Of a stretch of DNA of 64,000 nt, positions 1,633 to 22,417 are shown piece after piece. The stretch covers positions 1 through 64,000 of the IMG/VR virus record IMGVR_UViG_3300037423_001065. One strand, 5' to 3'. This DNA is from a virus. The notes beneath the pieces were generated by a model. It was not told the DNA's origin. It did not search any database and worked only from the letters and a program-made list of their open reading frames with translations. Every line of letters begins with the position of its first letter. Position 1 is the stretch's first letter. A program made the position numbers and the translations under genes.

Positions 1633-1641
1633 AAGCGCGAG

Positions 1642-1895
1642 GGGCCCGGGGTGACAGCCGGGTCTAACTTTACCGGGTAGGCGTACCGAAGCGAGCGGTC
1701 CCGGGTCTATGACAAAAGCGCTAGGAGCCTGGTGCTGCGCACCGTTCTGTCGCGGAGCGCGGCATCAGGCGCCGAACATTTTCAGAACCCCGGGGGGTGT
1801 GTCGGGTTGGCGCCGGCACCGTGTCATCGGAACCTCCTAGCGAAGCAAAGCCCACACTGCCCAATGTGAGCCTCCCGGGATTCACTACTACCTGA
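1642..1895 (+). ncRNA. Candidate structured ncRNA A (nested multi-stem with possible pseudoknot)
   Basis: Complementary segments 1674-80/1888-94, 1697-1705/1874-82, 1719-27/1834-42, 1728-40/1757-69 and 1770-75/1807-12; crossing pair 1709-14/1822-27; followed by a terminator. Confidence 0.55.
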
Positions 1896-1896
1896 C

Positions 1897-1928
1897 ACGC
1901 CGCGGCGCATTCTGCCCGCGGCGTTTTT
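1897..1928 (+). terminator. Rho-independent terminator
   Basis: ACGCCGCGG/CCGCGGCGT stem followed by a T run. Confidence 0.8.
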
Positions 1929-1930
1929 GC

Positions 1931-1946
1931 GTCGTGAGCCGAAACT
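1931..1946 (+). promoter_or_regulatory. Putative late promoter motif driving ncRNA B
   Basis: GTCGTGAGCCGAAACT, immediately after a terminator; matches the recurring motif. Confidence 0.6.
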
Positions 1947-1951
1947 GGGTA

Positions 1952-2165
1952 CTGCCATCGGGAGATGGCGGCTTGGCCTGCGCGTTCGCGCGCTGTGCTG
2001 TTGCGACCCTGAGCGGCTTCCATTGGGGAAATAAAGGCCGCAGTTAGGTCACGATCGTGTCGTCTAGGGGTAGGCGGCATCCTTTCCTGCGGGGCTTCGG
2101 GGCTCGCAGTAGACGGGGGCCTAACCGTGAGGCCGGGGCGGGAAACCGCTCCGGCCTTTCGTCTT
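1952..2165 (+). ncRNA. Candidate structured ncRNA B (about 210 nt) ending in a terminator hairpin
   Basis: Hairpins with GGGA, UUCG, cUUCGg and GAAA tetraloops; stems 2013-19/2035-41, 2060-66/2110-16 and 2087-93/2103-09; own promoter motif; terminator at 2130-2165. Confidence 0.6.
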
Positions 2166-2181
2166 GTCGTGACTCGATGAT
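2166..2181 (+). promoter_or_regulatory. Putative late promoter motif (leaderless start)
   Basis: GTCGTGACTCGATGAT, 6 nt before ATG 2188, no SD sequence. Confidence 0.7.
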
Positions 2182-2187
2182 CGCGAG

Positions 2188-3342: not shown

Positions 3343-3566
3343 TCCTGTACCAGGCGCTCGAGCTGCGCGACGAGCTCGGCAAGCCCCTGGGCCGCTGGCG
3401 CCAGACCATGAGCTGCGACGAGGCGCCGCGCCTGGAGCATCCGGTGCCGCTGTGCTCCTGCCCGAACGGGCACGAGTCGCGCCAGGCCGCGCGCCAGTGC
3501 CCCGTGGTGCAGGCGGCGCTGCCGCCGGAGCTGCGCGATCGACCGGACGACGAGGCCAGCGAATGA
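3339..3566 (+). CDS. Small Cys/His-containing hypothetical protein (75 aa)
   Basis: GTG start overlaps the MuF stop, and its stop overlaps the next ATG; CSC..GH....A..C pattern. Confidence 0.65.
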   Translation: MILYQALELRDELGKPLGRWRQTMSCDEAPRLEHPVPLCSCPNGHESRQAARQCPVVQAALPPELRDRPDDEASE

Positions 3567-4741
3567 CCATCCTGCTGCTCAAGACCCATGTGAGGGGGTA
3601 CGTCAAGCGCGACGGCACCGCGGTGGCCCCGCACCAGGACAAGCGCCCGGCCGCGCACGGGCATCCGCCGCCGGCGATGACCGCCGCCCAGGCGAAGCAG
3701 CGCGACCTGTTCGAGGAGCATGCGCCCAAGGTGTTTTCCATCTCAGCTCATGGCTCCGCGGTCGCGATCGCGCCCGGGCCCGACCTCGCCAGCTATGACA
3801 AGGTCCTGATCGGATTCAGCGGCGGCAAGGACAGCATCGCGTGCCTGCTCGCGCTTCTCGAGAACGGCGTCCCGCCGGAGAAGATCGAGCTGCACCACCA
3901 CGACATTGACGGTGAGGGCGCGTCCTTCATGGACTGGCCGATCACCAAAGACTACTGCCGCAAGATCGCGGAAGCGGTCGGCGTGCCGATCTACTTCTCC
4001 TGGCGCGAGGGCGGGTTCGAGCGCGAGATGCTGCGCGAAAACCAACGCACGGCGCCGGTGATCTTCGAAAAGCCCGACGGGACCCGTGGGCGCGCTGGCG
4101 GTGAACATGGACCGCTGGGCACGCGCAGAAAATTCCCCCAGCAGTCCGCCAACCTCACGACGCGCTGGTGCAGCGGCGCGCTCAAGGTGGATGTGATGGC
4201 CGCGGCCGTTCGCAACCAGGAGCGGTTCACCGGCAAGCGCACCCTAATCGTGACTGGCGAGCGCGCCGAGGAGAGCTCCAACCGGGCGAACTACAAGGCG
4301 TTCGAGCCCGATCGCGCGCACAGCTCGACGCGCCACGTCGACCACTACCGGCCGGTGCACGGCTGGAGTGAGGCCCAGGTCTGGGACGTGATGCGCAAGC
4401 ACGGCGTCGTGCCGCACCCGTCGTATCAGCTCGGCTACGGCCGGCTGTCGTGCCGGAATTGCATCTTCGCCGGCCCGAACCAGATTGCGACGAACAACAC
4501 GCTCTACCCGGCCGAGACCGGCAAGGTGGCGCAGCGCGAGCGCGAGTTCGGCGTGACCATCCACCGCAAAGAGGACCTGATGACGCGCGCCGCGAAGGGC
4601 CGCGCGTACCAGGCGGCGATCGACCAGCCGGAGGTGGCGGCGCTGGGCAACTCCAAAACCTGGGCGGGACCGGTCATCGTGCCGGTCGACCAGTGGAAGC
4701 TGCCGGCCGGCGCTTTCGGCGAGAAGGACGGACCATGCTGA
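3563..4741 (+). CDS. PAPS reductase-family (PP-loop) protein with N-terminal cargo tag
   Basis: FSGGKDS PP-loop, WCSGALK, TGERAEES and RLSCRNC motifs; likely start ATG 3563 (ATGA overlap). Confidence 0.85.
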   Translation: MTILLLKTHVRGYVKRDGTAVAPHQDKRPAAHGHPPPAMTAAQAKQRDLFEEHAPKVFSISAHGSAVAIAPGPDLASYDKVLIGFSGGKDSIACLLALLENGVPPEKIELHHHDIDGEGASFMDWPITKDYCRKIAEAVGVPIYFSWREGGFEREMLRENQRTAPVIFEKPDGTRGRAGGEHGPLGTRRKFPQQSANLTTRWCSGALKVDVMAAAVRNQERFTGKRTLIVTGERAEESSNRANYKAFEPDRAHSSTRHVDHYRPVHGWSEAQVWDVMRKHGVVPHPSYQLGYGRLSCRNCIFAGPNQIATNNTLYPAETGKVAQREREFGVTIHRKEDLMTRAAKGRAYQAAIDQPEVAALGNSKTWAGPVIVPVDQWKLPAGAFGEKDGPC

Positions 4742-6690
4742 TTGTGTTGGCGAAGGCCCACGTCAAGGGCTATGTGAAACAGGACGGCACCGTGGTGCGG
4801 CCGCACGACGACAAGCGGCCGGCGGCAAAGCCGGTACAGCCGTCGCTCGAGCTGCGCGAGCCCACCGGTGGCGACCAGGTCACGCCGTTCCCGTACGCGT
4901 CCGGCATGAGTCGACGCCGCGACATGGAGGCGGCGATCGAGTCGCCGGCCGGCCTGGGCACGGAAATCGGCGAGCTGTCCAACTTCGGCATGGACCGCAT
5001 CGTGGAAGCCATCCGGCGCGAGAAAAAGCCGGTGTTCGTGGACTCCGGCGCCTTCAACGCGTTCAAGCGCGCGATGCGCGAGGGCGACGCCAGCAAGGCG
5101 CGCCTGGACTTCGCGCCGATCTTCGCGAAGTACTCCGAGCTGTCGCGCCGGGTGTGCCAGGACGTGCCGTATCGCGACCGCGCGCTGCTCATGGTCGTCG
5201 CGCCCGACGTGATCGGCGACCAGGTCGCGACGCTCGAGCTGATCGAGAAGCACGCCGACCAGGTGCAGGCGTGGCTCGAGGCCGGGCACGAGGTCATCGT
5301 GCCATTCCAGCGCGGGCCGCTGAACCAGCGCGAGGCGTATGACCGCGTCGCCGCGGCGCTGGGCGGTACCGACTTCGTCGTCGGCATCCCGTCGGCGGCG
5401 GCCGCCATGACCGCGTCCGACCTGCGCGAGCTGCTGTCTGGCGACTACCTGCCCGATCGCCTGCATATCCTCGGCGCCGTGAGCTCGCACCGCATGGAGG
5501 AGCGCATGGAGGTGATCCGCGAGTGCTACGTCTCGGACGTGCCGGGAGTGACCTGCGACGCGAACGTGATGCGCTCGAAGCTCCAGGAACTCGGCGGCCT
5601 GTCCGGCGGCGTGAAGTTCGACAAGATCAAGGAGATTCTGTCGCGCGTGGTGCCGAAGCAATGGGGCGGCTCGCTCGAGCCCGTGCTGGCGAAGGCGATG
5701 CTGGACGAGGACGACGCCCAGGTGGGGTTCTTCACGGCGCCCGTGCGCCACGTGGACGTGTTCGCCCAGGGCTGGACGCCGCCGACGCGCGCCCAGGCCG
5801 AGGCCGGCGAGTACTTCAAGCCGACGGTGCAGTGGCGCGGCCTGACCATCCGCATCGAGAATCCCGCGGGCTCGACGCGGCACTGGCGTGGCGGCGCGAC
5901 GAAAATGCGCTACGACTACGGGTACTTCGAGGACACGATCGGCGCCGACGGCGACGAGCTCGACGTGTACCTGGGCCCGTCGCTGGCCTTCGCGCCGAAC
6001 GTCTACATCGTGCGCCAGCGCCGACACGGCGACCCGGCCGCCGGCTCCTGGCGGCGCTACGACGAGGACAAGGTCATGGCCGGCTTCCTGTCTGAAAAGC
6101 AGGCGCGCGCAGCCTACCTCATGCACTACGACGACCCGCGGTTCCTGGGCGAGGTCGTCACAATGCCTGTGGACAAGTTTGTGGAAAAGGTCCATGCGAT
6201 GGGCGGCAAGCCCGGCATGCTCAAGGCGCTGATGTTCATGACCCAGGTCGGGAACTACATGCGCAACGGCCATCCGGTGCAGGGCTACCAGCGCCACGAG
6301 ACGCGCGAAAGCACCGACCCGCACGCCGGCATCCGAGCGGCCCACCAGCGCCAGCGCCAGGCCCTGCGCGACCACTTCCGCCAGTACGGCGACGGCTTCG
6401 AGCTGCGCCACTTCGACGGCAAGCAGTGGGCCGTCCTGATGCCCGATGCGAGCCACGAGGGCAAGTACCGGTACCAGGTGTTCGATGACCGCGGGCTGCG
6501 CGCGCACTACACGTACAACCGGCCGGAGGACGCGCTCGACGGCGCCTACGATGCCGGGTTCCGCGAGCATGATCCTGGCGCCATGGAGCGCCTGGCGCCC
6601 GTCTGGGCGGCCCGCTTCGATGACCCCGAGGTGCAGGCCCGGGCGTCGGTCTCCGGCGAGCGGGAAGATGGCGACCGCACGCAATCGTGA
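4735..6690 (+). CDS. Polyprotein: cargo tag + TGT/DpdA-like base-exchange domain + inorganic pyrophosphatase-like domain + C-terminal domain
   Basis: VDSGAF, PDVIGD and HILG (TGT-like); IENPAGSTR, DYGYF, GADGDELDVY and DEDKVM (PPase-like). Start ATG 4735 follows AAGGA. Confidence 0.7.
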   Translation: MLIVLAKAHVKGYVKQDGTVVRPHDDKRPAAKPVQPSLELREPTGGDQVTPFPYASGMSRRRDMEAAIESPAGLGTEIGELSNFGMDRIVEAIRREKKPVFVDSGAFNAFKRAMREGDASKARLDFAPIFAKYSELSRRVCQDVPYRDRALLMVVAPDVIGDQVATLELIEKHADQVQAWLEAGHEVIVPFQRGPLNQREAYDRVAAALGGTDFVVGIPSAAAAMTASDLRELLSGDYLPDRLHILGAVSSHRMEERMEVIRECYVSDVPGVTCDANVMRSKLQELGGLSGGVKFDKIKEILSRVVPKQWGGSLEPVLAKAMLDEDDAQVGFFTAPVRHVDVFAQGWTPPTRAQAEAGEYFKPTVQWRGLTIRIENPAGSTRHWRGGATKMRYDYGYFEDTIGADGDELDVYLGPSLAFAPNVYIVRQRRHGDPAAGSWRRYDEDKVMAGFLSEKQARAAYLMHYDDPRFLGEVVTMPVDKFVEKVHAMGGKPGMLKALMFMTQVGNYMRNGHPVQGYQRHETRESTDPHAGIRAAHQRQRQALRDHFRQYGDGFELRHFDGKQWAVLMPDASHEGKYRYQVFDDRGLRAHYTYNRPEDALDGAYDAGFREHDPGAMERLAPVWAARFDDPEVQARASVSGEREDGDRTQS

Positions 6691-6725: not shown

Positions 6726-9700
6726 ATGATCATCCTTTTCCAGAAATCCCAACTCGCCCTGTTCGACACGCCCGTGCGAGTGGCGACGCACGTGCGCAAG
6801 GACGGCGTCGTGATCCCGGAGCACACCGCGACGCGGAAAAAGGGCGTGCACGCCGCGCACCACGGCCGCCTGCAAGCCTTCATCGACAACCACGGCGGCG
6901 CCGCCGGCATGGCCCGCACGCTGTCGTCCATGTCGGCCGCTCACCAGCAGCGCCTCTACGCCGAGATGGCGAAGCTGGGCGGCATCACGCCCGAGGAGGT
7001 CGCCGCGAAGTTCCCGGACGTGAAGCCGGCGCCGGAGCCCGTGCCGGATATGTTCACGCCGCCGCCGGCGCCTGCAGCGGCCGAACCCGCGCAAGTCGTT
7101 GAAAACACTGGGGACGAGGAGCCGCGATCGACCGACGACGACCACCCGGCGCCGACGCCGCGCCAGTCGCTGCGCGACCTGAGCGACGCCGATCGCAAGC
7201 GCTGGCTCGAGCTGCACCGCACGCAGCACGAGACCCACTACCACGAGATGGGCAAGGTGCGCGCCGAGATGGAGCGCGTGCACTCGAAAAAGAACAAGGC
7301 GGAAACCGCGATGCGCGAGGCCGAGGCCGGTCTCGAGTCGCAGCGCAAGGCGCCCGTGCCGGACGTTGTGCGCGAGGGCCAGTTCGAGGGCTCCATCGGC
7401 GCGCACCGCGCGGAGTTCAAGAAGCACGCCGCCAAGCTGGACGAGCTCGCCGGGCACCTGGAGACCCTGACCGGGTTGCGCGATCGCCTGGGCAAGCAGA
7501 AGGACGAAATCCTGGCCGGCAGCGGCGACCTGCGCATGAACCTCATGTCCGGCCAGCGCTCGACGCTCCAGGAGGAGCTGGACGCCCAGAAGCACTACGC
7601 GCGCGAGTACCGCGACTACTTCAAGGGCAAGGACAAGAAGCCGAAGGCCGAAACGAAACGCGCCAAGCGCGGAACGGAGCCGGCCAAAGCTGAAACGAAA
7701 CCCGCAGAAGTCGAAACGCCGGTGCCCGACACGCACGATCGCGCCGCGCCGTTCGGCGTGCCGGCCGGCATCAGCAAGGCCGAGCGGCGCTCGATCAACA
7801 GCCAGGTGGCCGCACGCATCGCGCAGGGCGGGCCGTTCGACGGCGCCGACCGGCACCTGATGCGCCAGTACAGCGGCAACGGCGGATGCGGCGACAGCCT
7901 CAACGAGTACTACACCGACCCGGCCGTCACGCGCGGCATGTGGACGGCGATCGCCGCGATGGGCGTCACGCATGGCGACGTGCTCGAGCCTTCCTGTGGC
8001 ACCGGCGTGTTCCTGCACACCGCGCCGACCGGCTTCAAGGTCACGGGCGTCGAGCTGGACCCGGTGAGCGCCACGGTGGCGTCTGTACTGCACGGCGATC
8101 GCCATGAGGTGCACACCGCTTCGCTCGAGCGCTTCGCGACCATGGACGATCGCCAGTTCGACGTGGTGATCGGCAACCCGCCGTACGGCCCGCGCGGCAT
8201 GCTGGCGAAGGACGACAAGAAGTACATCTCCACCGCCGAGCAGTACTTCGTGGACACGGCGATCGACAAGGCGAAGCCGGGCGGCATCATCGCCCTGGTC
8301 GTGCCCACCGGCATCCTGGACTCGAGCTCCGGTCGCTCGATGCGCCAGAGCTGGCTGTGCCGGGCCGAGTTCCTGGGCGCGCAGCGCATGCCGAACACCG
8401 CGTTCGAGCACTCGCACACCGAGGTGACAACCGACGTTGTCTACTTCCGCAAGCGCCCCGACGCCGTCGGCCAGGCCCTCAACACCCTGGACGAGAAGAT
8501 TCCCGACGACCTGGCGGCGCTCAAGAAGCTGGGCGTCTGGGACGAGGAGTTCATCGCCGGCTCGTACTTCACCGGCCGCGGCGCCGCGAACATCCTGGGC
8601 ACGATGGGCCCGGGCTGGCGCGCCCAGGCCGGCATGGGCAACGACATTACCGTCAACGGCTCGATGGCCGGCGTCCCCGAGGCCCTGGCGGCCTTCACGC
8701 CCGACAGCGAGTCGCGCCCGGCGACCGATCTGAGCGTCGACCAGGTGCTCGACACTCTCCAGGGCGAGCCGCGCGAGCGCGCGCGCAACGCCGCGCAGCG
8801 CGATCGCCCCTACCTGAACACCGCCAAGGTCGGCGACGTGAAAACCGTCGACGGCGTCGAGTACATCCTCCAGGGCGACCCGCCGCGCTGGCATCGCGTG
8901 GACGAGTTCATGCAGGCGCCGGCGATCGCCGACGCCGCGCCGATCGCCGCGGAAATCGACCGCCTGTTCAACGGCCAGGCCGTGAACCGGCCGCAGCTCG
9001 AGGCCGACGTGCGCGCCTGGGTGGCGAAGCACGGCATCCCGGCCGACAACAAGGACCTGATGACCGCGGCGTCGTCGGACCGCACGCTGTACCGCCTGAT
9101 CGGCGCCGTCAACCGCCAGGGCGAGCTGTCCGACGCCGTGCTGGGCAAGGGCTCGCGCGCGCTCGAGGGCGGCTTCGACGCGACCGCCGAGGCGATGGCG
9201 CTGGAGGCGAAGTCGGGCGACTTCACGGCCGCCGAGCTCGCCGAGCGCCTGGGCAAGAACCTGGACGAGGTCGAGGAGCACCTGGCCGCGGACGCGCGCT
9301 ACGCGTGGGTCGGCGACGGCCGCTGGGCGCCCATGAGCATGTACCTGACCGGCGAGCTGTGGCCGAAGCTGGACGCCGCGCGCGCCGCTGTCGCCGCCGG
9401 CCATCCGCTCAAGGACAAGCTCGCCGACCAGGTCTCGCGCCTGGAGAAGGCGATCGACCCGAAGGCGCTCGAGGACGTTGAAATCCAGCTCAATTCCGCG
9501 TTCCTGCCGCTGCACGTCATCGAGGCGTTCTTCAACTGGAAGCAGTACGACAGCGACGAGGCCAACGAGTGGACGAAAAAGCAGAAGCCGCTCGAGCTGG
9601 TGTTCCGCGACGGCGTCTACATCGTCAGCGGCGGCAACCAGTACGGCACGGCGAAGCTGCTGGACAAGTACCTCAATCGCACCGGCATCCGCAAAGAGGA

Positions 9701-12700
9701 GGACCTGCCGACGATCGAGCGCCTGAACGACGAGTTCAAGCAGTGGCTGTGCACCTCGCAGTACCGCGACGCCGTCGAGGACCTTTACAACCGCAAGTTC
9801 CGCGGCTTCGCGCAGCGCGACTTTTCCGATGAGCCGATCGACGTGCCGGGCCTCACGACGGACCGCGACGTGCGCGCCTGGCGCTGGTCGAGCCTGCGGC
9901 GCAGCCTGTCGGACGGCAAAGGTATCGTCGCGGACGACGTTGGCCTGGGCAAGACCCTGGGCGGCCTGCTGCTCGCGCGCATGGCGAAGATGCAGGGCAC
10001 CGCGAAGCGCCCGATCATCGTCGTGCCAAAGTCCGTGCTCGCCAACTGGTACGCCGAGTCCCAGGTGTGGTTCCCGGGCTCGCGCGTGCTCACGATCGGC
10101 GCCAACTTCGCGCGCGACAAGACCGGCGAGCTGGTAGGCCGCGACGACGACGCCGCGGAGCGCAAGCGCAAATACCACGACCTGACGCAGAACGACTACG
10201 ATTTCGTGTTCATCAGCGAGCCGGCGTTCGAGGAGGTCGACCTGAACCCGGAGACCAAGGAGAAGTACTACTCCGAGGACTTCTGGGTGCAGCGCGGCGA
10301 GGCCCTGGGCAACGCCGGCGACAAGCGGCGCAAGGCGATCAAGGAGCGCTTCGAGCAGCACCTGGCGCAGCGCGAGTTTCAGGACCGCACCGACGCGATC
10401 TGGTTCGATGACCTCGGCGTTGACATGCTCATCGCCGATGAGATGCACCACCAGAAAAACCTCTACGCGGCGCGCGCGCGCTTCGGTGAGAACCCGAAGT
10501 TCCTGGGCGGCCAGGGGCTTTCGAATCGGGCCCTGGACTTCAACCTCAAGACCCGCTGGGTGCGCGAGCACAACGGCGGCAAGGGCATCTACGGCCTGAC
10601 GGCGACGCCGACGAAAAACAGCCCGCTCGAGATTTACTCGATGCTGTCGCATATCGCGCCGGAGGCGTTCGAGAACATCGGCATCCGCAACAGCGAGGAG
10701 TTCCTGGACCGCTTCTGCGAGTTTCAGAACGACAAGGTGCTATCGACCCAGGGCGCGATCGAGGACGCGCTCGTGGTGTCCGGGTTCAAGAACCTGGACG
10801 AGCTGCGCGAAATCATGTTCCGGTTCATCGACCGGCGCACCGCGCAGGACGTGGGCCTCAAGCTGCCGGAGCGCGACCAGCGCACGCACCTGATCGAGAT
10901 GAGCAAGGCGCAGGAGAACGTCTACGCCGAGCTGCGCGCCCTGGCCGAGGAGAGCGCCGGCAAGAAGGACGCGACCGGCGACTCGCACATTTTCTCGATC
11001 ATGGACAAGATGGGCAAGGCGGCCCTGGACCTCGAGCTCCTGGGGCACGCCGGCGCCCGCTCGCCGAAGATCGAGGCCCTGGCGGAGCAGGTCACGGCCG
11101 GCTTGAAGGACGGCGGCCAAATCGTGTTCTGCGAGTCGGTGCCGACGCACGACAAGATCGTGCGCGCCCTGGTCGACGCCGGCGTGCCGCGCGAGCAAAT
11201 CGGCGTGATCAACGCCCAGGTGGCGGGCTCCGCGGTCAAGCGCCAGAACATCGCCGACAAGTTCAACGCCGGCAAGCTGCGCGTCGTCATCGGCAACGTC
11301 ACGATGGCCGAGGGCCTGAACCTCCAGAAAACCACGACGGACATTCACGAGCTGGACATTCCCTGGGAGCCCGCCACGGTGCAGCAGCGCCTCGGCCGCG
11401 GCATCCGCCAGGGCAACCTCAACGAGTCCGTGCGCACGCACTCCTACCTGGCGCGCGGCAGCTTCGACGGCTACCGGTACCAGGCCGTGCACGCCAAGCG
11501 TGACTGGATGGACCTGCTCTGGTCCGGCGGCGATCGCGTCGAGAACCTGGCGCGCGAGGGCAACCTCACCCTGGACGACATGCGCATCATGCTGGCGGCC
11601 GACCCGGACGAGGCGCGCGCCAAGTTCGAGGAGGACAAGACGGCCGCGATGAAGCGCTATGACGCCGAGCAGCGCGCCGACGCCCAGAAGCAGTTCGTCC
11701 GGTTCGTGGACCTGCACCGCAACTACTCGTCGCTCAAGAACAAGGACACCAAGTCGGCGACGATGCTGCGCCAGCGGCTCGAGGCGGCGAAAACGTCCCT
11801 GTTCAACAATCCGCACTGGCCGGCGAAGGCAGCGCTCGAGACCGGCTCCGACACGCTGATCCACCCCCAGACCGGTACGACCCTGGCGGCGAACGTCGGC
11901 CTCGAGCTGCCGAGCGAGGGCAAGGTCGTGATCACCGGCGTCAACATGCGCGACGGCACCGTGACGCTGCGCCGCTACGCCGACCTCGAGGGCGGCAAGC
12001 GCGCGACCGTGAAGCTGGACGAGCTCAAGGAGGCCGCGCCGTTCAAGTATGACGCCGAGGCCGAGAACAAGGAGGCCCAGGAGAAGTTCGAAGCCGCGGC
12101 CGCCGAGAAGCTGGACTCGATCGAGTCGTACGAGGAGATTGCGGCGCTGCCGACCGCGGTCATCGACAAGAACGCGGCGATGCTCCAGGAGCGCATCAAG
12201 CAGGGCATGAAGGAGTACAAATTCCGCATGCCGTACGGCGCCATCACGATGGTGGACAAGCAGACCGGGCAGCTCGAGTCCGTCGAGGACTATCACGCGC
12301 GCGACAAGCACGACACGCACGACTACCTGCTGCCGACCAGCGACGCGCGCGAGAAGTCCATCCAGGCGTACATGGACGCCGAGCGCCAGGCGAAGATCGG
12401 CACGCAGTTCTTCTCCGGCAAGCGCAACAAGTCGTACTACACCGCGGCGCGGAAGTACGTCGGCACGCGCTACGGAAACGAGCACGCGAACCCGTTCAAG
12501 GCGTCCCTCGAGCGCCTGGGTGGCAGCTCCAGGACGTACGGCGTCGACGCGCCGCTTGTCAAGGAGGCGAAGCAGCGCCTGGCCGCCGAGCAGGTGAGCG
12601 CAATTCGACACGCCAGCTCGATCAAGTCGGCGTTCGACGCCCTGTACCCCCTGGCGACCGTCGAGGGCCGCACCGAGGGCTACGGCGAGGAGGGCATGCA

Positions 12701-13181
12701 GGCGAAGTACCCGAAGGAAGCCCTCACCATGCTGTGGGCGCGCGCGCGGCACCTGGGCGCCCTGGGCAAGCCCATGGCCGAGGCGTTCGACAAGAAGCAC
12801 GCCTTCTACGCCGTCAGCAAGGGCCACGAGCTCAGCGTGCACAACGCCCTGGTCAAGATGGCGCTTTCCAGCGGCTACAACGACCTGGCGGAGGCGATGC
12901 TGGAAAGCGGCCGCCGGCACCACAAGACCAACATTCACGCCGAGACCGTGCGCGTCCTGGGCCAGGGCTGGAACCACTCGCGCGGCCTGCTGCAACACCT
13001 GCGCCACGCGGCCGATGAGGCCGGCGTGCTGGACATGACGCCGAACCAGCTCCGCGAGTACAAGCTGAGCGGCAAGTTCGCGCCGTACAGCGGATACGGG
13101 GGCTACTACACGAGTCACCACTCGAGCTCCGGAAAGACCATGCGCGAGCTCATCGCGGAAAGCCTGGAGACCGCCAAATGA
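6726..13181 (+). CDS. DarB-like N6-adenine DNA methyltransferase-SF2 helicase fusion (2151 aa)
   Basis: EPSCGTG and NPPY MTase motifs; DVGLGKT, DEMH, TATP, EGLNLQ and QRLGRGIRQG helicase motifs. Confidence 0.88.
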   Translation: MIILFQKSQLALFDTPVRVATHVRKDGVVIPEHTATRKKGVHAAHHGRLQAFIDNHGGAAGMARTLSSMSAAHQQRLYAEMAKLGGITPEEVAAKFPDVKPAPEPVPDMFTPPPAPAAAEPAQVVENTGDEEPRSTDDDHPAPTPRQSLRDLSDADRKRWLELHRTQHETHYHEMGKVRAEMERVHSKKNKAETAMREAEAGLESQRKAPVPDVVREGQFEGSIGAHRAEFKKHAAKLDELAGHLETLTGLRDRLGKQKDEILAGSGDLRMNLMSGQRSTLQEELDAQKHYAREYRDYFKGKDKKPKAETKRAKRGTEPAKAETKPAEVETPVPDTHDRAAPFGVPAGISKAERRSINSQVAARIAQGGPFDGADRHLMRQYSGNGGCGDSLNEYYTDPAVTRGMWTAIAAMGVTHGDVLEPSCGTGVFLHTAPTGFKVTGVELDPVSATVASVLHGDRHEVHTASLERFATMDDRQFDVVIGNPPYGPRGMLAKDDKKYISTAEQYFVDTAIDKAKPGGIIALVVPTGILDSSSGRSMRQSWLCRAEFLGAQRMPNTAFEHSHTEVTTDVVYFRKRPDAVGQALNTLDEKIPDDLAALKKLGVWDEEFIAGSYFTGRGAANILGTMGPGWRAQAGMGNDITVNGSMAGVPEALAAFTPDSESRPATDLSVDQVLDTLQGEPRERARNAAQRDRPYLNTAKVGDVKTVDGVEYILQGDPPRWHRVDEFMQAPAIADAAPIAAEIDRLFNGQAVNRPQLEADVRAWVAKHGIPADNKDLMTAASSDRTLYRLIGAVNRQGELSDAVLGKGSRALEGGFDATAEAMALEAKSGDFTAAELAERLGKNLDEVEEHLAADARYAWVGDGRWAPMSMYLTGELWPKLDAARAAVAAGHPLKDKLADQVSRLEKAIDPKALEDVEIQLNSAFLPLHVIEAFFNWKQYDSDEANEWTKKQKPLELVFRDGVYIVSGGNQYGTAKLLDKYLNRTGIRKEEDLPTIERLNDEFKQWLCTSQYRDAVEDLYNRKFRGFAQRDFSDEPIDVPGLTTDRDVRAWRWSSLRRSLSDGKGIVADDVGLGKTLGGLLLARMAKMQGTAKRPIIVVPKSVLANWYAESQVWFPGSRVLTIGANFARDKTGELVGRDDDAAERKRKYHDLTQNDYDFVFISEPAFEEVDLNPETKEKYYSEDFWVQRGEALGNAGDKRRKAIKERFEQHLAQREFQDRTDAIWFDDLGVDMLIADEMHHQKNLYAARARFGENPKFLGGQGLSNRALDFNLKTRWVREHNGGKGIYGLTATPTKNSPLEIYSMLSHIAPEAFENIGIRNSEEFLDRFCEFQNDKVLSTQGAIEDALVVSGFKNLDELREIMFRFIDRRTAQDVGLKLPERDQRTHLIEMSKAQENVYAELRALAEESAGKKDATGDSHIFSIMDKMGKAALDLELLGHAGARSPKIEALAEQVTAGLKDGGQIVFCESVPTHDKIVRALVDAGVPREQIGVINAQVAGSAVKRQNIADKFNAGKLRVVIGNVTMAEGLNLQKTTTDIHELDIPWEPATVQQRLGRGIRQGNLNESVRTHSYLARGSFDGYRYQAVHAKRDWMDLLWSGGDRVENLAREGNLTLDDMRIMLAADPDEARAKFEEDKTAAMKRYDAEQRADAQKQFVRFVDLHRNYSSLKNKDTKSATMLRQRLEAAKTSLFNNPHWPAKAALETGSDTLIHPQTGTTLAANVGLELPSEGKVVITGVNMRDGTVTLRRYADLEGGKRATVKLDELKEAAPFKYDAEAENKEAQEKFEAAAAEKLDSIESYEEIAALPTAVIDKNAAMLQERIKQGMKEYKFRMPYGAITMVDKQTGQLESVEDYHARDKHDTHDYLLPTSDAREKSIQAYMDAERQAKIGTQFFSGKRNKSYYTAARKYVGTRYGNEHANPFKASLERLGGSSRTYGVDAPLVKEAKQRLAAEQVSAIRHASSIKSAFDALYPLATVEGRTEGYGEEGMQAKYPKEALTMLWARARHLGALGKPMAEAFDKKHAFYAVSKGHELSVHNALVKMALSSGYNDLAEAMLESGRRHHKTNIHAETVRVLGQGWNHSRGLLQHLRHAADEAGVLDMTPNQLREYKLSGKFAPYSGYGGYYTSHHSSSGKTMRELIAESLETAK

Positions 13182-19190: not shown

Positions 19191-19216
19191 GTGTCCGCGC
19201 GCGATGGCGTTGTCCG

Positions 19217-19232
19217 GTCGTGACAACACCAT
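19217..19232 (+). promoter_or_regulatory. Putative late promoter motif (leaderless start) for the head operon
   Basis: GTCGTGACAACACCAT, 7 nt before ATG 19240. Confidence 0.7.
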
Positions 19233-19239
19233 ACGCTCC

Positions 19240-20169
19240 ATGTTTCCGTCCGACGAAAGCCTCATCGCGGCTGTCCCGTCCTTCATCAGCATCGGTTCGA
19301 TGTTGAAGGCGACGCCGTCGATGGATGGCGGTCGCCGCTTCCTGTACTGCGAGGCCAGCAACGAGGGCCTGGACCAGCAAAACGAGGTCGTCGCCGCGAA
19401 GGCGCTGGCCGAGTCCGCCGAGTACTTCAAGCGCTACGGCAACATCGACCTGGAGCACTACACGCTGATCGGCAAGCCGAACCCGGCCAAGGGCTGGCCC
19501 GGCATTCCCGACGCGAACCTGTACGAGATTGGCCGGCCGTGCGACGTGCGCCAGACCGGCAAGTCCACGTTCGTGAAGTCGGAGATTTACTCCGGCGACG
19601 GCATCGCGGCCGCGCGCGCCAACGAGTTCTGGTCGTCCCTGACCGAGCTCAATCCGCCGCAGCGCTGGTATCCGTCCGTCGGCGGCGCGATCGACAAGTC
19701 GGCGACCAAGGTCGTGATCGACCCCGAGACCAAGCTGCGCAAGGCGATCGTGCAAAAGGTCCGCTGGACCAACATCGGTTTCAGCAAGACGCCGGTCAAC
19801 CAGCACGTGCCCGAGTGCGCGACGCTGCCCATGGGTGCGTTCGCGAAGTGCTTCGGCGCCGAGGGCTTCGACCTGGCGAAGGCGCTCGAGGCGAGCTACG
19901 CAACGGACGCCGTCGGCAAGACCGGCGGCGGTGCCCTCGGCATGCAGTCGCTCGATCGCGGCCAGGCGCCCAGGAACTATCACGAGTTCCGCGAGAAATT
20001 GGCCGAGCACGTCCGCACGGGCGTGATCGGCGAGAACCCCGGTGCGGGCGAGCTTGTCTCGTACGCCGCCAATCATTTCAGCTTGCCGTCCGACCAAGCG
20101 GCTGAATGGGTCGAGCGCTTCGTGCGCGATTTGAAAACTGGTCTCAACAAACGGAGCATGAAATCATGA
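19240..20169 (+). CDS. Prohead maturation protease
   Basis: ASNEGLDQQNE, IDLEH, SVGG and TPVN motifs of the HK97/herpes-type protease fold; lies before scaffold and capsid. Confidence 0.8.
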   Translation: MFPSDESLIAAVPSFISIGSMLKATPSMDGGRRFLYCEASNEGLDQQNEVVAAKALAESAEYFKRYGNIDLEHYTLIGKPNPAKGWPGIPDANLYEIGRPCDVRQTGKSTFVKSEIYSGDGIAAARANEFWSSLTELNPPQRWYPSVGGAIDKSATKVVIDPETKLRKAIVQKVRWTNIGFSKTPVNQHVPECATLPMGAFAKCFGAEGFDLAKALEASYATDAVGKTGGGALGMQSLDRGQAPRNYHEFREKLAEHVRTGVIGENPGAGELVSYAANHFSLPSDQAAEWVERFVRDLKTGLNKRSMKS

Positions 20170-20867
20170 GTCAATTCCAGAAGCTGCTGGCGGACCTCGC
20201 GCAGGCCCAGGCAGGCACGGATACCCTCGCGAAGTCGCTCCCGGCGGGCGGCGAAGGCGCCGGTGCCGGCGCGGGTGGCGAAGGTGGTGAAGGCGGCGCA
20301 GCGGCCGGCGGCGAGGGTGCCGGCGGTGAAGGCGGCGCGGCGGGCGCGGGCGAAGGCGCGGGCGCGGGCGGCGAAGGCGGCCAGGCGACCCTCACCAAGT
20401 CGCTCAAGGTCACGCTGGCCGACGGCACCGAAGTCGAAGCCGAGGACGGCACCGAGCTCGTGAAGGCGCTCATGGCGCGCCTGGACGACGCCGAAACGAC
20501 CCTCACCAAGTCGCTGACGATCACCATGGACGTGATCGGCAAGCAGAACGCGATGATCAAGTCGCTGAGCGAGCAAGTCACCGCGCTGCGCGGCGAAGGC
20601 CGCGGCCGCAAGACCGTCATCGCGATCCACGACAAGGGCGGCGCCGCCGCCGGCGGCCAGGGCGCGGGCGCCCAGGGCGGCGAAGGCGAGCTCGCCAAGG
20701 GCGGGGCCGAAGTGTCCGCCGACGACTTCATGCTCAAGGCGCACGCCGCCTATGACCAGAAGCTGATCGACGGCGTCGGCCTCGGAACCATCGACGTGTG
20801 CCTGCGCTCCGGCCAGCCCGTCCCCACCGACCTGATTTCCAAGGTTGCGAAGGCCAAGACGGCCTAA
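20166..20867 (+). CDS. Putative capsid scaffolding protein, Gly/Ala/Glu-rich
   Basis: Lies between protease and capsid; coiled-coil segment; several LxKS motifs. Confidence 0.7.
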   Translation: MSQFQKLLADLAQAQAGTDTLAKSLPAGGEGAGAGAGGEGGEGGAAAGGEGAGGEGGAAGAGEGAGAGGEGGQATLTKSLKVTLADGTEVEAEDGTELVKALMARLDDAETTLTKSLTITMDVIGKQNAMIKSLSEQVTALRGEGRGRKTVIAIHDKGGAAAGGQGAGAQGGEGELAKGGAEVSADDFMLKAHAAYDQKLIDGVGLGTIDVCLRSGQPVPTDLISKVAKAKTA

Positions 20868-20911: not shown

Positions 20912-22417
20912 ATGAAACAACTTCTCGCGCAATTCGCGAACGTGGCGGCCGGTACCGGCGCCGCGGCAGCGCTGGGCGGCTCGCATGGCGGCGCCCTCTC
21001 GCAATTCGAGGAGCTCCAGAAAGCCCTCCAGGCGAGCAACTACCAGACGGACGTTTCGACGCTGACCGGCGGCGGCGCGCTCGGCGTGCAATCGCTGGAC
21101 ACGGCGATGAAAACGACCATCCAGGAGAACGAACACTTCATCCTGTTCAACCAGCTCCAGAGCACGAACGCCACGAACATCGTGGACGAGTACACGCGCC
21201 AGACGAGCGTGGGCGGCTTCCTGGGCGGCACCACGAACACCCAGATGGGTGTCGTGCGCGCGGCGCAGGGCGACTACAGCCGTGAAATCGGCCTGGTCAA
21301 GTTCCTGATGACCCTTCGCCAGGTCGGCTACGTGCTGAACATCGGCAAGAACATCGTGGAAGCGACCGCGGTCGAGGAGCGCAACGGTGCCCTGCAGCTC
21401 CTGACGGACGCCGAGTACCTGCTGTTCTACGGCAACGCCGACGCGAGCCCGACGCAGTACGACGGCATCTTCGCGCAGCTCGACAAGGAAATCGCCGCCG
21501 GCGGCATGCCCAGCGACTGCGTCCTGAACATGAACGGCGCGAAGCTCGACTCCGTCGACCCGTTCTCGAAGATCAACGTCGCGGTCTCGCGCTACGGCTC
21601 CTGGGGCCGCAGCACGGACGTGTACCTGCCCAACTCCGTGCAGAACGACCTGAACATGGGTCTCGACCCGGCGTTCCGCTGGGGCCCCGGCCAGAACACG
21701 CCGCAGATCGGCTCGCACGTCGAGGGCATCCGCCTGACGAACGGCGTGCTCAAGACGCACATGGACACGTTCATCCACGACGAGGCGCACCCGATGCAGT
21801 CCCCGTTCGAGGTGAACTTCGCCGCGATCGCGACGGCCAACGTCGGTTTCCGCCCGGTGTCGATCGCCGGTGTGGCCGCCGCGGGCACGCCCGCCAACTG
21901 GTTCACCGCGGGCCGCGCGGGCAACTACTACTACGCCGTCGAGGCCATCGGCGCGAGCGGCGAGGGCATGTCCGGCGTCGTGAAGTCGGGCCAGGTGGCC
22001 GTGGCCGCGGGCAACAAGGTGACGCTCACGATCACGCGCTCCGCCGCGGCGACCGAGTCGGGCTATCGCATCTTCCGCTCGAAGCAGGACGGCGTGAACA
22101 CCACGTCCGAGTTCCGCCTCATGGCGGTGGTGAAGTGCGCCGGCGCGACGACCACGTACGTGGACGAGAACCAGAACATCCCCGGCACGACCGCCGTCCC
22201 CATGCTGAACATGAGCCGTTCGGCGGACGCGATCGGCTGGCGGCAGTTCCAGCCGATGACCAAGATTCCCCTGCCGTTCGGCATCGGTGGCGTCCCGGTC
22301 ATCTCGTGGTTCCAGTTCCTGTTCGGGTACCTGCGGATCACCAAGCCGAAGCACCACGGCTACATCAAGAACATCCTGCCGGCCAACGCCCTGTGGCGTC
22401 CGCACACCGGCGAGTAA
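20912..22417 (+). CDS. Major capsid protein
   Basis: LQKAL...GGALGVQSLD N-arm resembling SPO1/A511/K-type capsid proteins; LFYGNAD and QYDGI motifs; GAGG SD; terminator downstream. Confidence 0.88.
   Translation: MKQLLAQFANVAAGTGAAAALGGSHGGALSQFEELQKALQASNYQTDVSTLTGGGALGVQSLDTAMKTTIQENEHFILFNQLQSTNATNIVDEYTRQTSVGGFLGGTTNTQMGVVRAAQGDYSREIGLVKFLMTLRQVGYVLNIGKNIVEATAVEERNGALQLLTDAEYLLFYGNADASPTQYDGIFAQLDKEIAAGGMPSDCVLNMNGAKLDSVDPFSKINVAVSRYGSWGRSTDVYLPNSVQNDLNMGLDPAFRWGPGQNTPQIGSHVEGIRLTNGVLKTHMDTFIHDEAHPMQSPFEVNFAAIATANVGFRPVSIAGVAAAGTPANWFTAGRAGNYYYAVEAIGASGEGMSGVVKSGQVAVAAGNKVTLTITRSAAATESGYRIFRSKQDGVNTTSEFRLMAVVKCAGATTTYVDENQNIPGTTAVPMLNMSRSADAIGWRQFQPMTKIPLPFGIGGVPVISWFQFLFGYLRITKPKHHGYIKNILPANALWRPHTGE

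What the first reader, a model, noticed from the sequence alone, without database searches (positions are those of the whole stretch)
4735..6690. Polyprotein with cleavage-like motifs exactly at domain boundaries (TGT-like | PPase | unknown)
Seen: PVLAKA (~5681-5697) separates the TGT-like and pyrophosphatase domains. GMLKAL (~6214-6231) follows the PPase and precedes a degenerate hairpin tag (TQVGNYMRNGHPVQGYQR). No 7-deazaguanine synthesis genes are visible in the window. Inference: maturation releases three independent cargo proteins, one a guanine base-exchange or glycosylase-like enzyme of unknown target.
Basis: partly seen in the sequence, partly recalled or inferred. Interest (0 to 1): 0.7.

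Follow-up and report, generated by a model that had tools for sequence, protein, structure and literature searches.

The report
Phage head cargo polyprotein with cut sites
A 98-kb phage encodes one 651-residue protein made of three enzyme-like modules, separated by short lysine motifs that also mark the capsid, scaffold and protease, so the head protease probably cuts it into three proteins that are injected with the DNA.

Summary
ORF 4735-6690 (651 aa) carries PVLAKA at 5680-5697 and GMLKAL at 6214-6231. Two AlphaFold models place both motifs in disordered linkers between three confident folds:
- a TIM barrel (X, residues 48-311);
- an InPase pyrophosphatase (PF18823, residues 345-489);
- a small alpha+beta domain (Y, residues 529-642).

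The motif h-x-K-[A/S] is not specific to this protein.
- It ends the 7-residue N-terminal leader of this protein and of four neighbouring head-module genes.
- It sits at the aligned propeptide boundary of the major capsid protein in this phage, PHB04, Mecenats66 and SPO1.
- It occurs 8 times in the scaffold (0.8 expected).
- It follows 34 of 50 InPase domains in relatives (background 3.5%).
- In PHB04 the InPase is a separate gene that begins and ends at these motifs.

Cleavage by the prohead protease is therefore the best reading, but it is inferred, not shown.

'TGT-like' is only partly supported. TGT, ArcTGT, Cap10 and DpdA are among the nearest folds, and conserved Asp residues sit on strands 3, 4 and 8. 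However, no TGT or DpdA profile matches and the zinc site is absent.

The phage has no deazaguanine synthesis genes. An earlier follow-up in this scan described a similar protein on other DNA.

The parts
4735..6690 (+). ORF of the three-module cargo protein (P0001, 651 aa)
   Evidence: an 82%-identical orthologue P0002 has the same start
4735..4755 (+). N-terminal hydrophobic leader MLIVLAK, ending in the K-[A/S] motif (residues 1-7)
   Evidence: The same kind of leader starts the genes at 3563, 6726 and 13527, with a K-to-P variant at 14114, and starts 25 of 181 related proteins. pLDDT is below 50.
4756..4821 (+). Basic beta-hairpin tag, AHVKGYVKQDGTVVRPHDDKRP (residues 8-29)
   Evidence: Predicted hairpin at 13-14/20-21. 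The tag recurs at module starts in P0002-P0016.
4876..5667 (+). X domain: eight-stranded (beta/alpha)8 TIM barrel, residues 48-311, weakly TGT/DpdA-like
   Evidence: AF2 mean pLDDT 81.8, with most of the barrel above 90. Fold searches. Found in 775 clusters in metagenomes.
5680..5697 (+). Junction 1 motif PVLAKA (residues 316-321), a putative prohead-protease site
   Evidence: Lies in the disordered stretch 313-345. Equivalent motifs follow X in close relatives.
5767..6201 (+). InPase domain (family I pyrophosphatase, polyvalent-protein clade), residues 345-489
   Evidence: PF18823 E 3.5e-32. AF2 pLDDT 84-95. Family I PPases at Z 6.2-6.7. The DGDELDV signature and the acidic residues are invariant.
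6214..6231 (+). Junction 2 motif GMLKAL (residues 494-499), a putative prohead-protease site
   Evidence: M and K are invariant in all 19 aligned InPase relatives. 34 of 50 InPase domains have the motif within 16 residues of the domain end. Low pLDDT.
6241..6294 (+). Second-type hairpin tag before module 3 (residues 503-520)
   Evidence: Weak predicted hairpin at 508-515. Same subtype in P0002, P0006, P0012, P0013 and P0021.
6319..6660 (+). Y domain: alpha+beta fold of about 115 residues (529-642), function unknown
   Evidence: AF2 pLDDT 80-95. Homologous modules only in P0002, P0006, P0180 and P0181. Best PDB match is YkuJ at Z 5.5. Atlas structure TM 0.61 to LPD16 clusters.
19204..20169 (+). 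Head maturation protease, the presumed processing enzyme
   Evidence: phrog_1028 E 9e-35. It carries SMLK|AT, and FDLAK|AL followed by a copy of the capsid N-terminal segment.
20166..20867 (+). Scaffold-like protein with 8 copies of the motif
   Evidence: 8 observed against 0.81 expected. The same holds in PHB04, Mecenats66 and SPO1.
20912..22417 (+). Major capsid protein, with ELQK|AL at the propeptide boundary
   Evidence: phrog_752 E 2e-91. The K is invariant in an alignment of four phages; sequence is variable upstream of it and conserved downstream.
3563..4741 (+). Neighbouring tagged PAPS-reductase/PP-loop protein
   Evidence: PF01507, phrog_424, weak BrxP/DndC matches
6726..13181 (+). 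Neighbouring tagged DarB-like methylase-SNF2 helicase (2151 aa)
   Evidence: Pfam N6_Mtase, Eco57I, SNF2-rel_dom, Helicase_C

Best explanation
P0001 is a virion-packaged 'polyvalent' cargo protein of a PHB04-like myophage. It is built as a string of cassettes: leader and hairpin, a TIM-barrel enzyme X, an InPase pyrophosphatase, a second hairpin, and a small domain Y. Each cassette border carries the motif hydrophobic-x-K-[A/S]. The same motif marks the capsid propeptide boundary, the scaffold, the protease itself, the portal C-terminus and the 7-residue leaders of the other head-module enzymes.

Proposed mechanism (inferred):
1. The hydrophobic leader, and perhaps the hairpin, bring the precursor into the prohead.
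2. The prohead protease then cuts at or next to the Lys. This removes the leader and splits the precursor into three proteins of about 34, 20 and 17.5 kDa.
3. These proteins stay in the head and enter the cell with the DNA.

InPase is an intact pyrophosphatase. X is most likely a zinc-less, distant relative of the TGT/DpdA base-exchange enzymes, acting on nucleic acid or a nucleotide at the start of infection. The function of Y is unknown.

Shown here: the domain limits, the motif positions, the conservation of the motif and its distribution among lineages. Inferred: packaging, cleavage and all enzymatic activities.
For: Domain limits: both motifs lie in linkers with pLDDT below 50, between folds of high confidence.

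The motif is shared with head-maturation substrates.
- The scaffold has 8 copies against 0.81 expected.
- The capsid has ELQK|AL, after which the sequence becomes conserved, and the K is invariant across this phage, PHB04, Mecenats66 and SPO1.
- The protease carries FDLAK|AL followed by a copy of the capsid N-terminal segment.
- The portal C-terminus has NLQK|SF.
- The same set of sites is present in PHB04, SPO1 and Mecenats66.

Leaders: four neighbouring head-module genes, and 25 of 181 related proteins, begin with a hydrophobic run that ends in K-[A/S/T].

Module shuffling happens at the motifs.
- In PHB04 the InPase is a separate 169-aa gene. It starts at ..VVLLK|A and ends at ..AMIK|A plus a short hydrophobic tail.
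- P0003 to P0012 permute X, InPase, Y and other domains at these same points.
- 34 of 50 InPase domains have the motif within 16 residues of the domain end, against 3.5% of random windows.
- M and K are invariant in the alignment.

The motif belongs to the phage lineage, not to the InPase fold: it is absent after InPase in Atu_ph08 and Rb1.

Packaging context:
- The gene lies between the portal and the protease/scaffold/capsid genes, beside MuF-like, DarB-like and Ulx-like genes.
- InPase matches PHROGs annotated as virion structural, minor head and DarB-like proteins.
- P1 DarB is packaged through an N-terminal signal (PMC9024508).
- T4 gp21 cuts at I/LxE and SPN3US gp245 at AXE in head and ejection proteins (PMC12991175, PMC10052503).

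X domain:
- The top Foldseek PDB hits are TGT (E 1.6e-5).
- VIA scores: ArcTGT Z 13.9, Cap10 13.5, TGT 13.4, DpdA 12.2.
- In the Atlas the nearest annotated families by structure are TGT (TM 0.63), and a cluster in which 17% of members carry the DpdA family scores 0.92 by features.
- Conserved D103+F107, D158, Q192/G194 and D275 lie at the ends of strands 3, 4, 5 and 8. DpdA has D95+F99 at the beta3/alpha3 loop and its nucleophile D256 where the beta8/alpha8 insertion begins, with D130 and H181/G182 between them in the chain (PMC10164549).
Against: - There is no protein-level evidence of any kind: no virion proteomics for this phage or for PHB04 was found.
- The exact scissile bond is unknown.
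- The strict motif also occurs in proteins outside the head module at about the chance rate, so the sequence alone does not prove cutting.
- The helicase leader has P in place of K.
- For X, class II aldolases score higher than TGT (Z 14.7-16.0).
- hhalign against a TGT profile gives 3.4% probability.
- Pfam TGT, DpdA and Beta_protein find nothing even at lax E-value limits (E <= 1 for TGT, 10 for the other two).
- PADLOC and NCBIfam also find nothing.
- X has no CxCxxC...H zinc site and no equivalent of insertion 8.
Confidence: 0.6

Rival explanations
1. The K-[A/S] motifs with their hydrophobic flanks are assembly or docking strands, not cut sites. They would bind the scaffold, the protease or the capsid interior by strand addition. 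The protein would then stay full-length in the virion as a classical polyvalent protein.
For: The motif is always flanked by a hydrophobic, strand-like run, such as the leaders and the C-terminal tails LVLFL and LFW. N4 vRNAP and several polyvalent proteins are delivered uncut (PMC5512222). The leader is only 7 residues long, which is short for a propeptide.
Against: The scaffold carries 8 copies and the capsid motif sits exactly where conservation begins. That is the pattern expected of protease substrates. Stand-alone and fused forms interchange at the motif, so the modules work as separate proteins.
Confidence: 0.2
2. The internal motifs are relics of recent fusions between genes that each carried a leader. 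They have no present function, and the protein acts as one chain.
For: PHB04 has the InPase as a separate gene with its own leader. Junction 2 in P0001 has lost the second K that relatives keep (LMFMTQ against LLIKS).
Against: M and K after InPase are invariant in 19 diverged relatives, and the motif is kept in 34 of 50. Neutral relics in disordered linkers should decay. Motifs also follow X in relatives where no leader or hairpin comes next.
Confidence: 0.08
3. The modules are made separately by internal translation starts at M322 and at M500/M502, just after each motif.
For: An ATG directly follows each motif.
Against: There is no well-spaced Shine-Dalgarno site: GAAGG ends 2 nt before the ATG at 5698, and only AAGG precedes 6232. 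Relatives have I, G, L or S at these positions instead of M.
Confidence: 0.03
4. X is a TIM-barrel enzyme with no functional link to TGT, for example an aldolase-like, phosphoesterase or glycosidase-type enzyme acting on a nucleotide or a cell-wall substrate. In that case the DSGAF match is convergent.
For: Class II aldolases give the top VIA Z scores of 14.7-16.0. All TGT and DpdA profiles fail. The Zn site is missing. The phage has no deazaguanine genes.
Against: X lacks the His metal ligands of class II aldolases; its conserved residues are Asp, Gln and Arg. Foldseek and the Atlas both rank TGT families first among annotated folds. The order of motifs is collinear with TGT across 235 columns.
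Confidence: 0.4

Closest known systems
Polyvalent proteins of phages and conjugative elements (Iyer, Burroughs, Anand, de Souza, Aravind 2017; PMC5512222)
   Same: Several unrelated effector domains sit in one polypeptide that is encoded among the portal and head genes. The InPase (PF18823) is one of the signature domains of this class. X also occurs in plasmid 'LPD1 domain-containing' polyvalent proteins.
   Different: That work proposes release of domains by embedded zincin-like or papain-like peptidases. P0001 has no peptidase domain and instead carries the capsid-protease motif at each junction. The paper's main text mentions neither a TIM barrel nor TGT and uses 'hairpin' only for other structures; the junction motif was not found under the terms searched.
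T4 internal proteins and Alt, with a capsid targeting sequence cut by gp21 at I/LxE
   Same: A short N-terminal signal ends in the prohead-protease motif. Enzymes are packed in the head and injected. The same motif is used in capsid and scaffold proteins (as cited in PMC12991175 and PMC9024508).
   Different: The P1 residue is Lys here, not Glu. The leader is 7 residues long. T4 cargo proteins lose one propeptide and are not split into several enzymes.
Head and ejection protein processing in SPN3US and phiKZ (gp245, AXE motif; PMC10052503)
   Same: One protease motif is shared by the capsid, the portal, the protease itself and the ejection proteins.
   Different: There, 13 of the 14 mapped sites remove N-terminal propeptides. 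No mature multi-enzyme polyprotein is reported.
P1 Dar antirestriction system (DarB, Ulx; PMC9024508)
   Same: DarB-like and Ulx-like genes lie next to P0001. In P1, the first 30 residues of DarB are enough to direct a protein into the capsid.
   Different: The N-terminus of P1 DarB has no visible likeness to the leader-hairpin tag. The P1 capsid protein is cut after Glu120.
tRNA-guanine transglycosylase and DNA preQ0 insertase DpdA (PMC10164549, PMC6884629)
   Same: Same (beta/alpha)8 barrel. A DSG(G/A)F motif with an aromatic residue four positions after the Asp. Conserved Asp residues at the ends of strands 3, 4 and 8, and a Q-x-G after strand 5.
   Different: No profile match. No CxCx2C...H zinc site and no insertion 8. 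No preQ0 pathway in the phage. X is a virion cargo module rather than a replication-phase enzyme.

Membership tests
Phage polyvalent (multi-effector, virion-delivered) proteins | Two or more unrelated effector domains in one polypeptide | tested here: met
   Three separate confident folds in a single ORF
Phage polyvalent (multi-effector, virion-delivered) proteins | Encoded among portal/head (late) genes | tested here: met
   The gene lies between the portal/MuF-like genes and the protease/scaffold/capsid genes, in synteny with PHB04
Phage polyvalent (multi-effector, virion-delivered) proteins | Physical presence in the virion and delivery into the host | not testable with these tools
   Needs virion proteomics
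InPase, PF18823 (family I pyrophosphatase of polyvalent proteins) | Profile match above the curated cut-off | tested here: met
   111.5 bits against a cut-off of 26.8, residues 353-485
InPase, PF18823 (family I pyrophosphatase of polyvalent proteins) | Conserved acidic metal-binding residues | tested here: met
   The DGDELDV and DEDK blocks are invariant in 19 relatives
InPase, PF18823 (family I pyrophosphatase of polyvalent proteins) | OB-type PPase fold | tested here: met
   Family I PPases at Z 6.2-6.7 with 112-124 residues aligned
TGT / DpdA transglycosylase superfamily | (beta/alpha)8 barrel | tested here: met
   Eight strand-helix units with pLDDT above 90
TGT / DpdA transglycosylase superfamily | Match to the family profiles (PF01702 TGT, PF23859 DpdA, PADLOC, NCBIfam) | tested here: not met
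   No match, even at lax E-value limits of 1 to 10. hhalign probability is 3.4-4%.
TGT / DpdA transglycosylase superfamily | Three invariant Asp: general acid on strand 3, base recognition on strand 4, nucleophile on strand 8 | tested here: inconclusive
   D103, D158 and D275 are invariant or nearly so, and they sit at the ends of those strands. No residue-level superposition could be made.
TGT / DpdA transglycosylase superfamily | Structural Zn site CxCx2C...H and insertion 8 | tested here: not met
   X ends about 35 residues after strand 8 and has no Cys cluster
TGT / DpdA transglycosylase superfamily | Fold similarity that stands above other TIM barrels | tested here: inconclusive
   Foldseek ranks TGT first, but with TM of only 0.37-0.40. 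In VIA, TGT-family members score Z 12.2-13.9, below the class II aldolases at up to 16.0.
TGT / DpdA transglycosylase superfamily | Base-exchange activity | not testable with these tools
   Needs an enzyme assay
Prohead-protease-processed head cargo (T4 IP/CTS type) | N-terminal signal that ends in the motif also used at the capsid maturation site | tested here: met
   Leader ..VLAK|A against capsid ..ELQK|A. The K is aligned and invariant in four phages.
Prohead-protease-processed head cargo (T4 IP/CTS type) | Demonstrated cleavage at the motif | not testable with these tools
   No proteomic data were found for this lineage
LPD16 (PF18830) for domain Y | Profile match | tested here: not met
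   No Pfam hit at E 0.05. The only link is an Atlas structure TM of 0.61 to LPD16 clusters.

The most novel reading that the evidence does not exclude
The leader plus K-[A/S] code would be a general, readable address-and-release system for capsid cargo, running from SPO1-like to PHB04-like phages. Under this reading, polyvalent cargo genes evolve by shuffling cassettes that are bounded by prohead-protease sites, so the capsid protease takes the role that embedded peptidases play in other polyvalent proteins. One cassette, X, would be a zinc-less TGT/DpdA-like enzyme injected with the DNA. It would exchange or remove a base in nucleic acid, or in a signalling nucleotide, at the first moment of infection, without any phage-encoded deazapurine pathway.
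Probability: 0.3. Interest if true: 0.8.

Novelty: new variant of a known kind. Interest (0 to 1): 0.6.

Why it matters
If the junction motifs are cut, this phage lineage makes true polyproteins of injected enzymes using its ordinary capsid protease.

- The contents of the head could then be predicted from sequence alone.
- It would explain how cargo genes fuse, split and swap so freely.
- It would offer a simple tag-and-cut-site recipe for loading foreign proteins into laboratory phage capsids.

The X domain is also worth attention. It is a large family with no catalogue entry: 775 clusters at 50% identity. It occurs alone, in giant polyvalent proteins and on Pseudomonas and Cupriavidus plasmids, yet has no tblastn match in 50,697 deposited phage genomes. 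If it proves to be a base-exchange enzyme, it would be a new branch of the TGT/DpdA superfamily that works as delivered cargo.

Tried and rejected
X domain searches that gave nothing useful:
- A profile of X against PDB sequences matched only a designed TIM barrel at E 0.03.
- Pfam run on all 40 aligned X proteins gave only a weak DUF6610 hit, below the cut-off.
- PADLOC and NCBIfam gave nothing for X or Y.
- hhalign of X against E. coli Tgt alone, and against a six-sequence TGT profile, gave 3-4% probability, with only the order of motifs collinear.
- Pfam TGT, DpdA and Beta_protein searched on the whole genome found nothing.
- tblastn of X against the phage collection found no match.

Y domain:
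- No homologue of 84-270 aa was found, and only four longer ones.
- Fold matches stay at Z 5.5 or below.

Other dead ends:
- The P1 DarB, DarA, DdrA/B, Ulx and Hdf N-termini show no likeness to the tag.
- Literature searches for a mapped capsid cleavage site in PHB04-like or SPO1-like phages found none in the held library. The LP65 paper is not held.
A viral-contig scan with E. coli Tgt returned only near-identical copies.
- The first protein-atlas call failed.
- Internal translation starts were considered and judged unlikely.
Full report
**What is there.** The window is the first 64 kb of a 98,102-base virus contig that CheckV rates complete. Its closest deposited relative is Bordetella phage vB_BbrM_PHB04, 94 kb. 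ORF 4735-6690 on the plus strand encodes 651 residues. Its ATG overlaps the stop of the upstream gene and follows a GAAGGA site. An 82%-identical orthologue from another metagenome has the same start.

**Domain limits.** Pfam finds InPase (PF18823) at residues 353-485 with 111.5 bits. Two AlphaFold runs on alignments give three confident folds:
- an eight-stranded TIM barrel at residues 48-311 (X);
- the InPase at 345-489;
- an alpha+beta domain at 529-642 (Y).

Residues 1-10, 29-47, 313-345, 497-507 and 516-527 fall below pLDDT 50. Both motifs therefore lie in linkers.

**The motif is a property of the head module, not of this protein.** I scored the pattern [LIVMF][AILTVQ]K[ASTG] against shuffled versions of every protein of the phage.
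- The scaffold-like protein has 8 copies against 0.81 expected.
- The portal has 4 against 0.82, one of them 13 residues from its C-terminus.
- P0001, the protease and the capsid protein each have 3 against about 0.6-0.8.
- Proteins outside the head module sit near expectation.

The genes at 3563, 4735, 6726 and 13527 all begin with a hydrophobic run that ends in K-[A/S/T]. The helicase gene at 14114 has a variant with P in place of K.

The capsid protein reads ..ELQK|ALQAS.. at residue 37. In an alignment with PHB04, Mecenats66 (39% identical) and SPO1 (25% identical), this K is invariant. The sequence before it is variable and the sequence after it is conserved. That is the usual signature of a propeptide boundary.

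The protease carries ..FDLAK|ALEAS.. followed by a near copy of the capsid N-terminal segment. The scaffolds of PHB04, Mecenats66 and SPO1 are likewise studded with x-K-[A/S].

By analogy with T4 gp21 (I/LxE) and SPN3US gp245 (AXE), whose motifs are shared by capsid, scaffold, protease and internal proteins (PMC12991175, PMC10052503), the simplest reading is that h-x-K-[A/S] is the recognition site of this lineage's prohead protease. This is an inference. I found no proteomic or N-terminal sequencing data for these phages.

**Modules are exchanged at the motifs.**
- In PHB04 the InPase is a stand-alone gene of 169 residues. It starts ..VVLLK|AD and ends ..AMIK|A plus an 11-residue hydrophobic tail.
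- Relatives from metagenomes show X-InPase, InPase-X-Y, X-InPase-ParB-like, X-InPase-RadC and other orders. The joints always have the form P-x-M-I-K-[A/S/G] or L-A-K-A, often followed by a new leader and hairpin.
- In an alignment of 19 InPase relatives the M and K after the domain are invariant.
- Of 50 InPase domains with a complete C-terminal end, 34 have the strict motif within 16 residues, against 3.5% of random windows.
- The motif is missing after InPase in distant phages (Atu_ph08, Rb1) and in giant polyvalent proteins. It therefore belongs to the phage lineage rather than to the InPase fold.

**The tag.** After the leader comes a basic hairpin, roughly H-V-x-G-Y-x-K-x-D-G-T-x-V-x-x-H-x-D-K-R. 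It is predicted as a hairpin at moderate confidence. InPase modules have the leader but no hairpin. The leader plus motif is therefore the common element, and the hairpin is an optional extra found mainly on enzymes that act on nucleic acids. The stretch before Y belongs to a second recurring subtype (x-V-x-x-Y-x-R-x-G-x-x-V-x-G-Y) that relatives also carry. What the hairpin binds is unknown. It shows no likeness to the N-terminus of P1 DarB, whose first 30 residues are sufficient as a capsid-targeting sequence (PMC9024508).

**The three modules.**
- *InPase.* It keeps the family I signature and its acidic residues and matches solved pyrophosphatases at Z 6.2-6.7. Iyer et al. suggest that such domains clear PPi or act on nucleotides during early infection (PMC5512222).
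- *X.* This is a large family with no catalogue entry: 775 clusters at E <= 0.001, found alone and inside proteins of up to 7,000 residues. It occurs on 47 plasmids, including 'LPD1 domain-containing' polyvalent proteins, but has no match in 50,697 deposited phage genomes. Points for a TGT/DpdA link: TGT is the top Foldseek hit, although TM is only 0.37-0.40; ArcTGT, Cap10, TGT and DpdA score Z 12.2-13.9; TGT families are the nearest annotated folds in the Atlas; and invariant D103 (+F107), D158, Q192/G194 and D275..R280 sit at the ends of strands 3, 4, 5 and 8. In DpdA, D95 (+F99) lies at the beta3/alpha3 loop and the nucleophile D256 where the beta8/alpha8 insertion begins, with D130 and H181/G182 between them (PMC10164549). 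Points against: class II aldolases score higher (Z up to 16.0); every sequence profile fails; and the zinc site and insertion 8 that define TGT and DpdA are absent. I rate homology to the superfamily at about even odds and base exchange as unproven.
- *Deazaguanine genes.* The phage has no QueC, FolE or QueD.
- *Y.* Y recurs only as a module in four related polyvalent proteins. It has no convincing fold match and only a structural hint towards LPD16.

**Relation to earlier notes of this scan.** A follow-up on another genome (e1-3283444) called a similar protein a head-packaged DpdA-like enzyme. My tests agree on the fold and the context but do not establish membership in the DpdA family.

**Verdict.** This is a polyvalent virion cargo protein whose domain borders carry the lineage's putative prohead-protease motif. 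Polyvalent proteins and protease-processed head cargo are both known kinds. Using the capsid protease's motif as the cut site between enzyme modules, together with a shared leader-hairpin tag, appears in none of the papers I could search. I class it as a new variant of a known kind.

Noticed in passing
Alignment A1 (solo X-domain proteins from metagenomes): 19 of the 39 stand-alone X-domain proteins end in the dipeptide Ala-Ala (..LAA, ..IAA, ..WAA), which recalls an ssrA-like C-terminal degron or a processing signal. Among 59 short hits, 18 end in AA.
   Followed up: partly
window 1640-2187: A stretch of about 550 bases with no ORF lies between the small gene that ends at 1632 and the MuF-like gene. 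In PHB04 the stretch between the same two flanking genes holds an HD phosphohydrolase gene (with the leader-hairpin tag) and a NinI-like phosphatase gene.
   Followed up: no
window 2-1393 and contig end 97746-98102: The RelA/SpoT-like ORF runs off the 5' end of the window. Joining the contig ends does not restore its start: about 33 N-terminal residues present in PHB04 gp034 are missing. The contig is therefore not a simple closed circle at this point. This protein also carries internal K-motifs plus a hairpin-like stretch, and ends ..PLQK|GG followed by a hydrophobic tail.
   Followed up: partly
L016 (Bacillus phage SPO1, 913-3853): The capsid protein (..ALNK|ALEAG..), the protease (..PLDK|SLEAG..) and the scaffold (13 x-K-S sites) of SPO1 share the same Lys motif. 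In SPO1 too, the protease C-terminal part mimics the capsid N-terminus. The putative protease specificity therefore looks much older than the PHB04-like group.
   Followed up: partly
window 4870-5670 (X domain): tblastn finds no X homologue in 50,697 GenBank phage records. It does find 47 plasmids, mostly Pseudomonas megaplasmids and Cupriavidus plasmids, several of them annotated as LPD1 domain-containing polyvalent proteins.
   Followed up: partly
window 3563-4741 with 4735-6690: A PP-loop (PAPS-reductase-like) enzyme lies directly upstream, translationally coupled to a TGT-like barrel fused to a pyrophosphatase. This recalls the QueC-like Cap9 / TGT-like Cap10 pair of type IV CBASS; Cap10 is among the fold hits (9ntn, Z 13.5). 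PHB04 lacks both the PP-loop gene and X, so the pairing is not obligatory.
   Followed up: no
P0180, P0181 (relatives): A third hairpin subtype, H-x-R-R-L-K-S-G-K-V-V-x-V, follows the double motif ..MIK|S-CVLFFK|S.. in these proteins. In several fusions two cut motifs lie 5-6 residues apart, which would release a short hydrophobic peptide.
   Followed up: no
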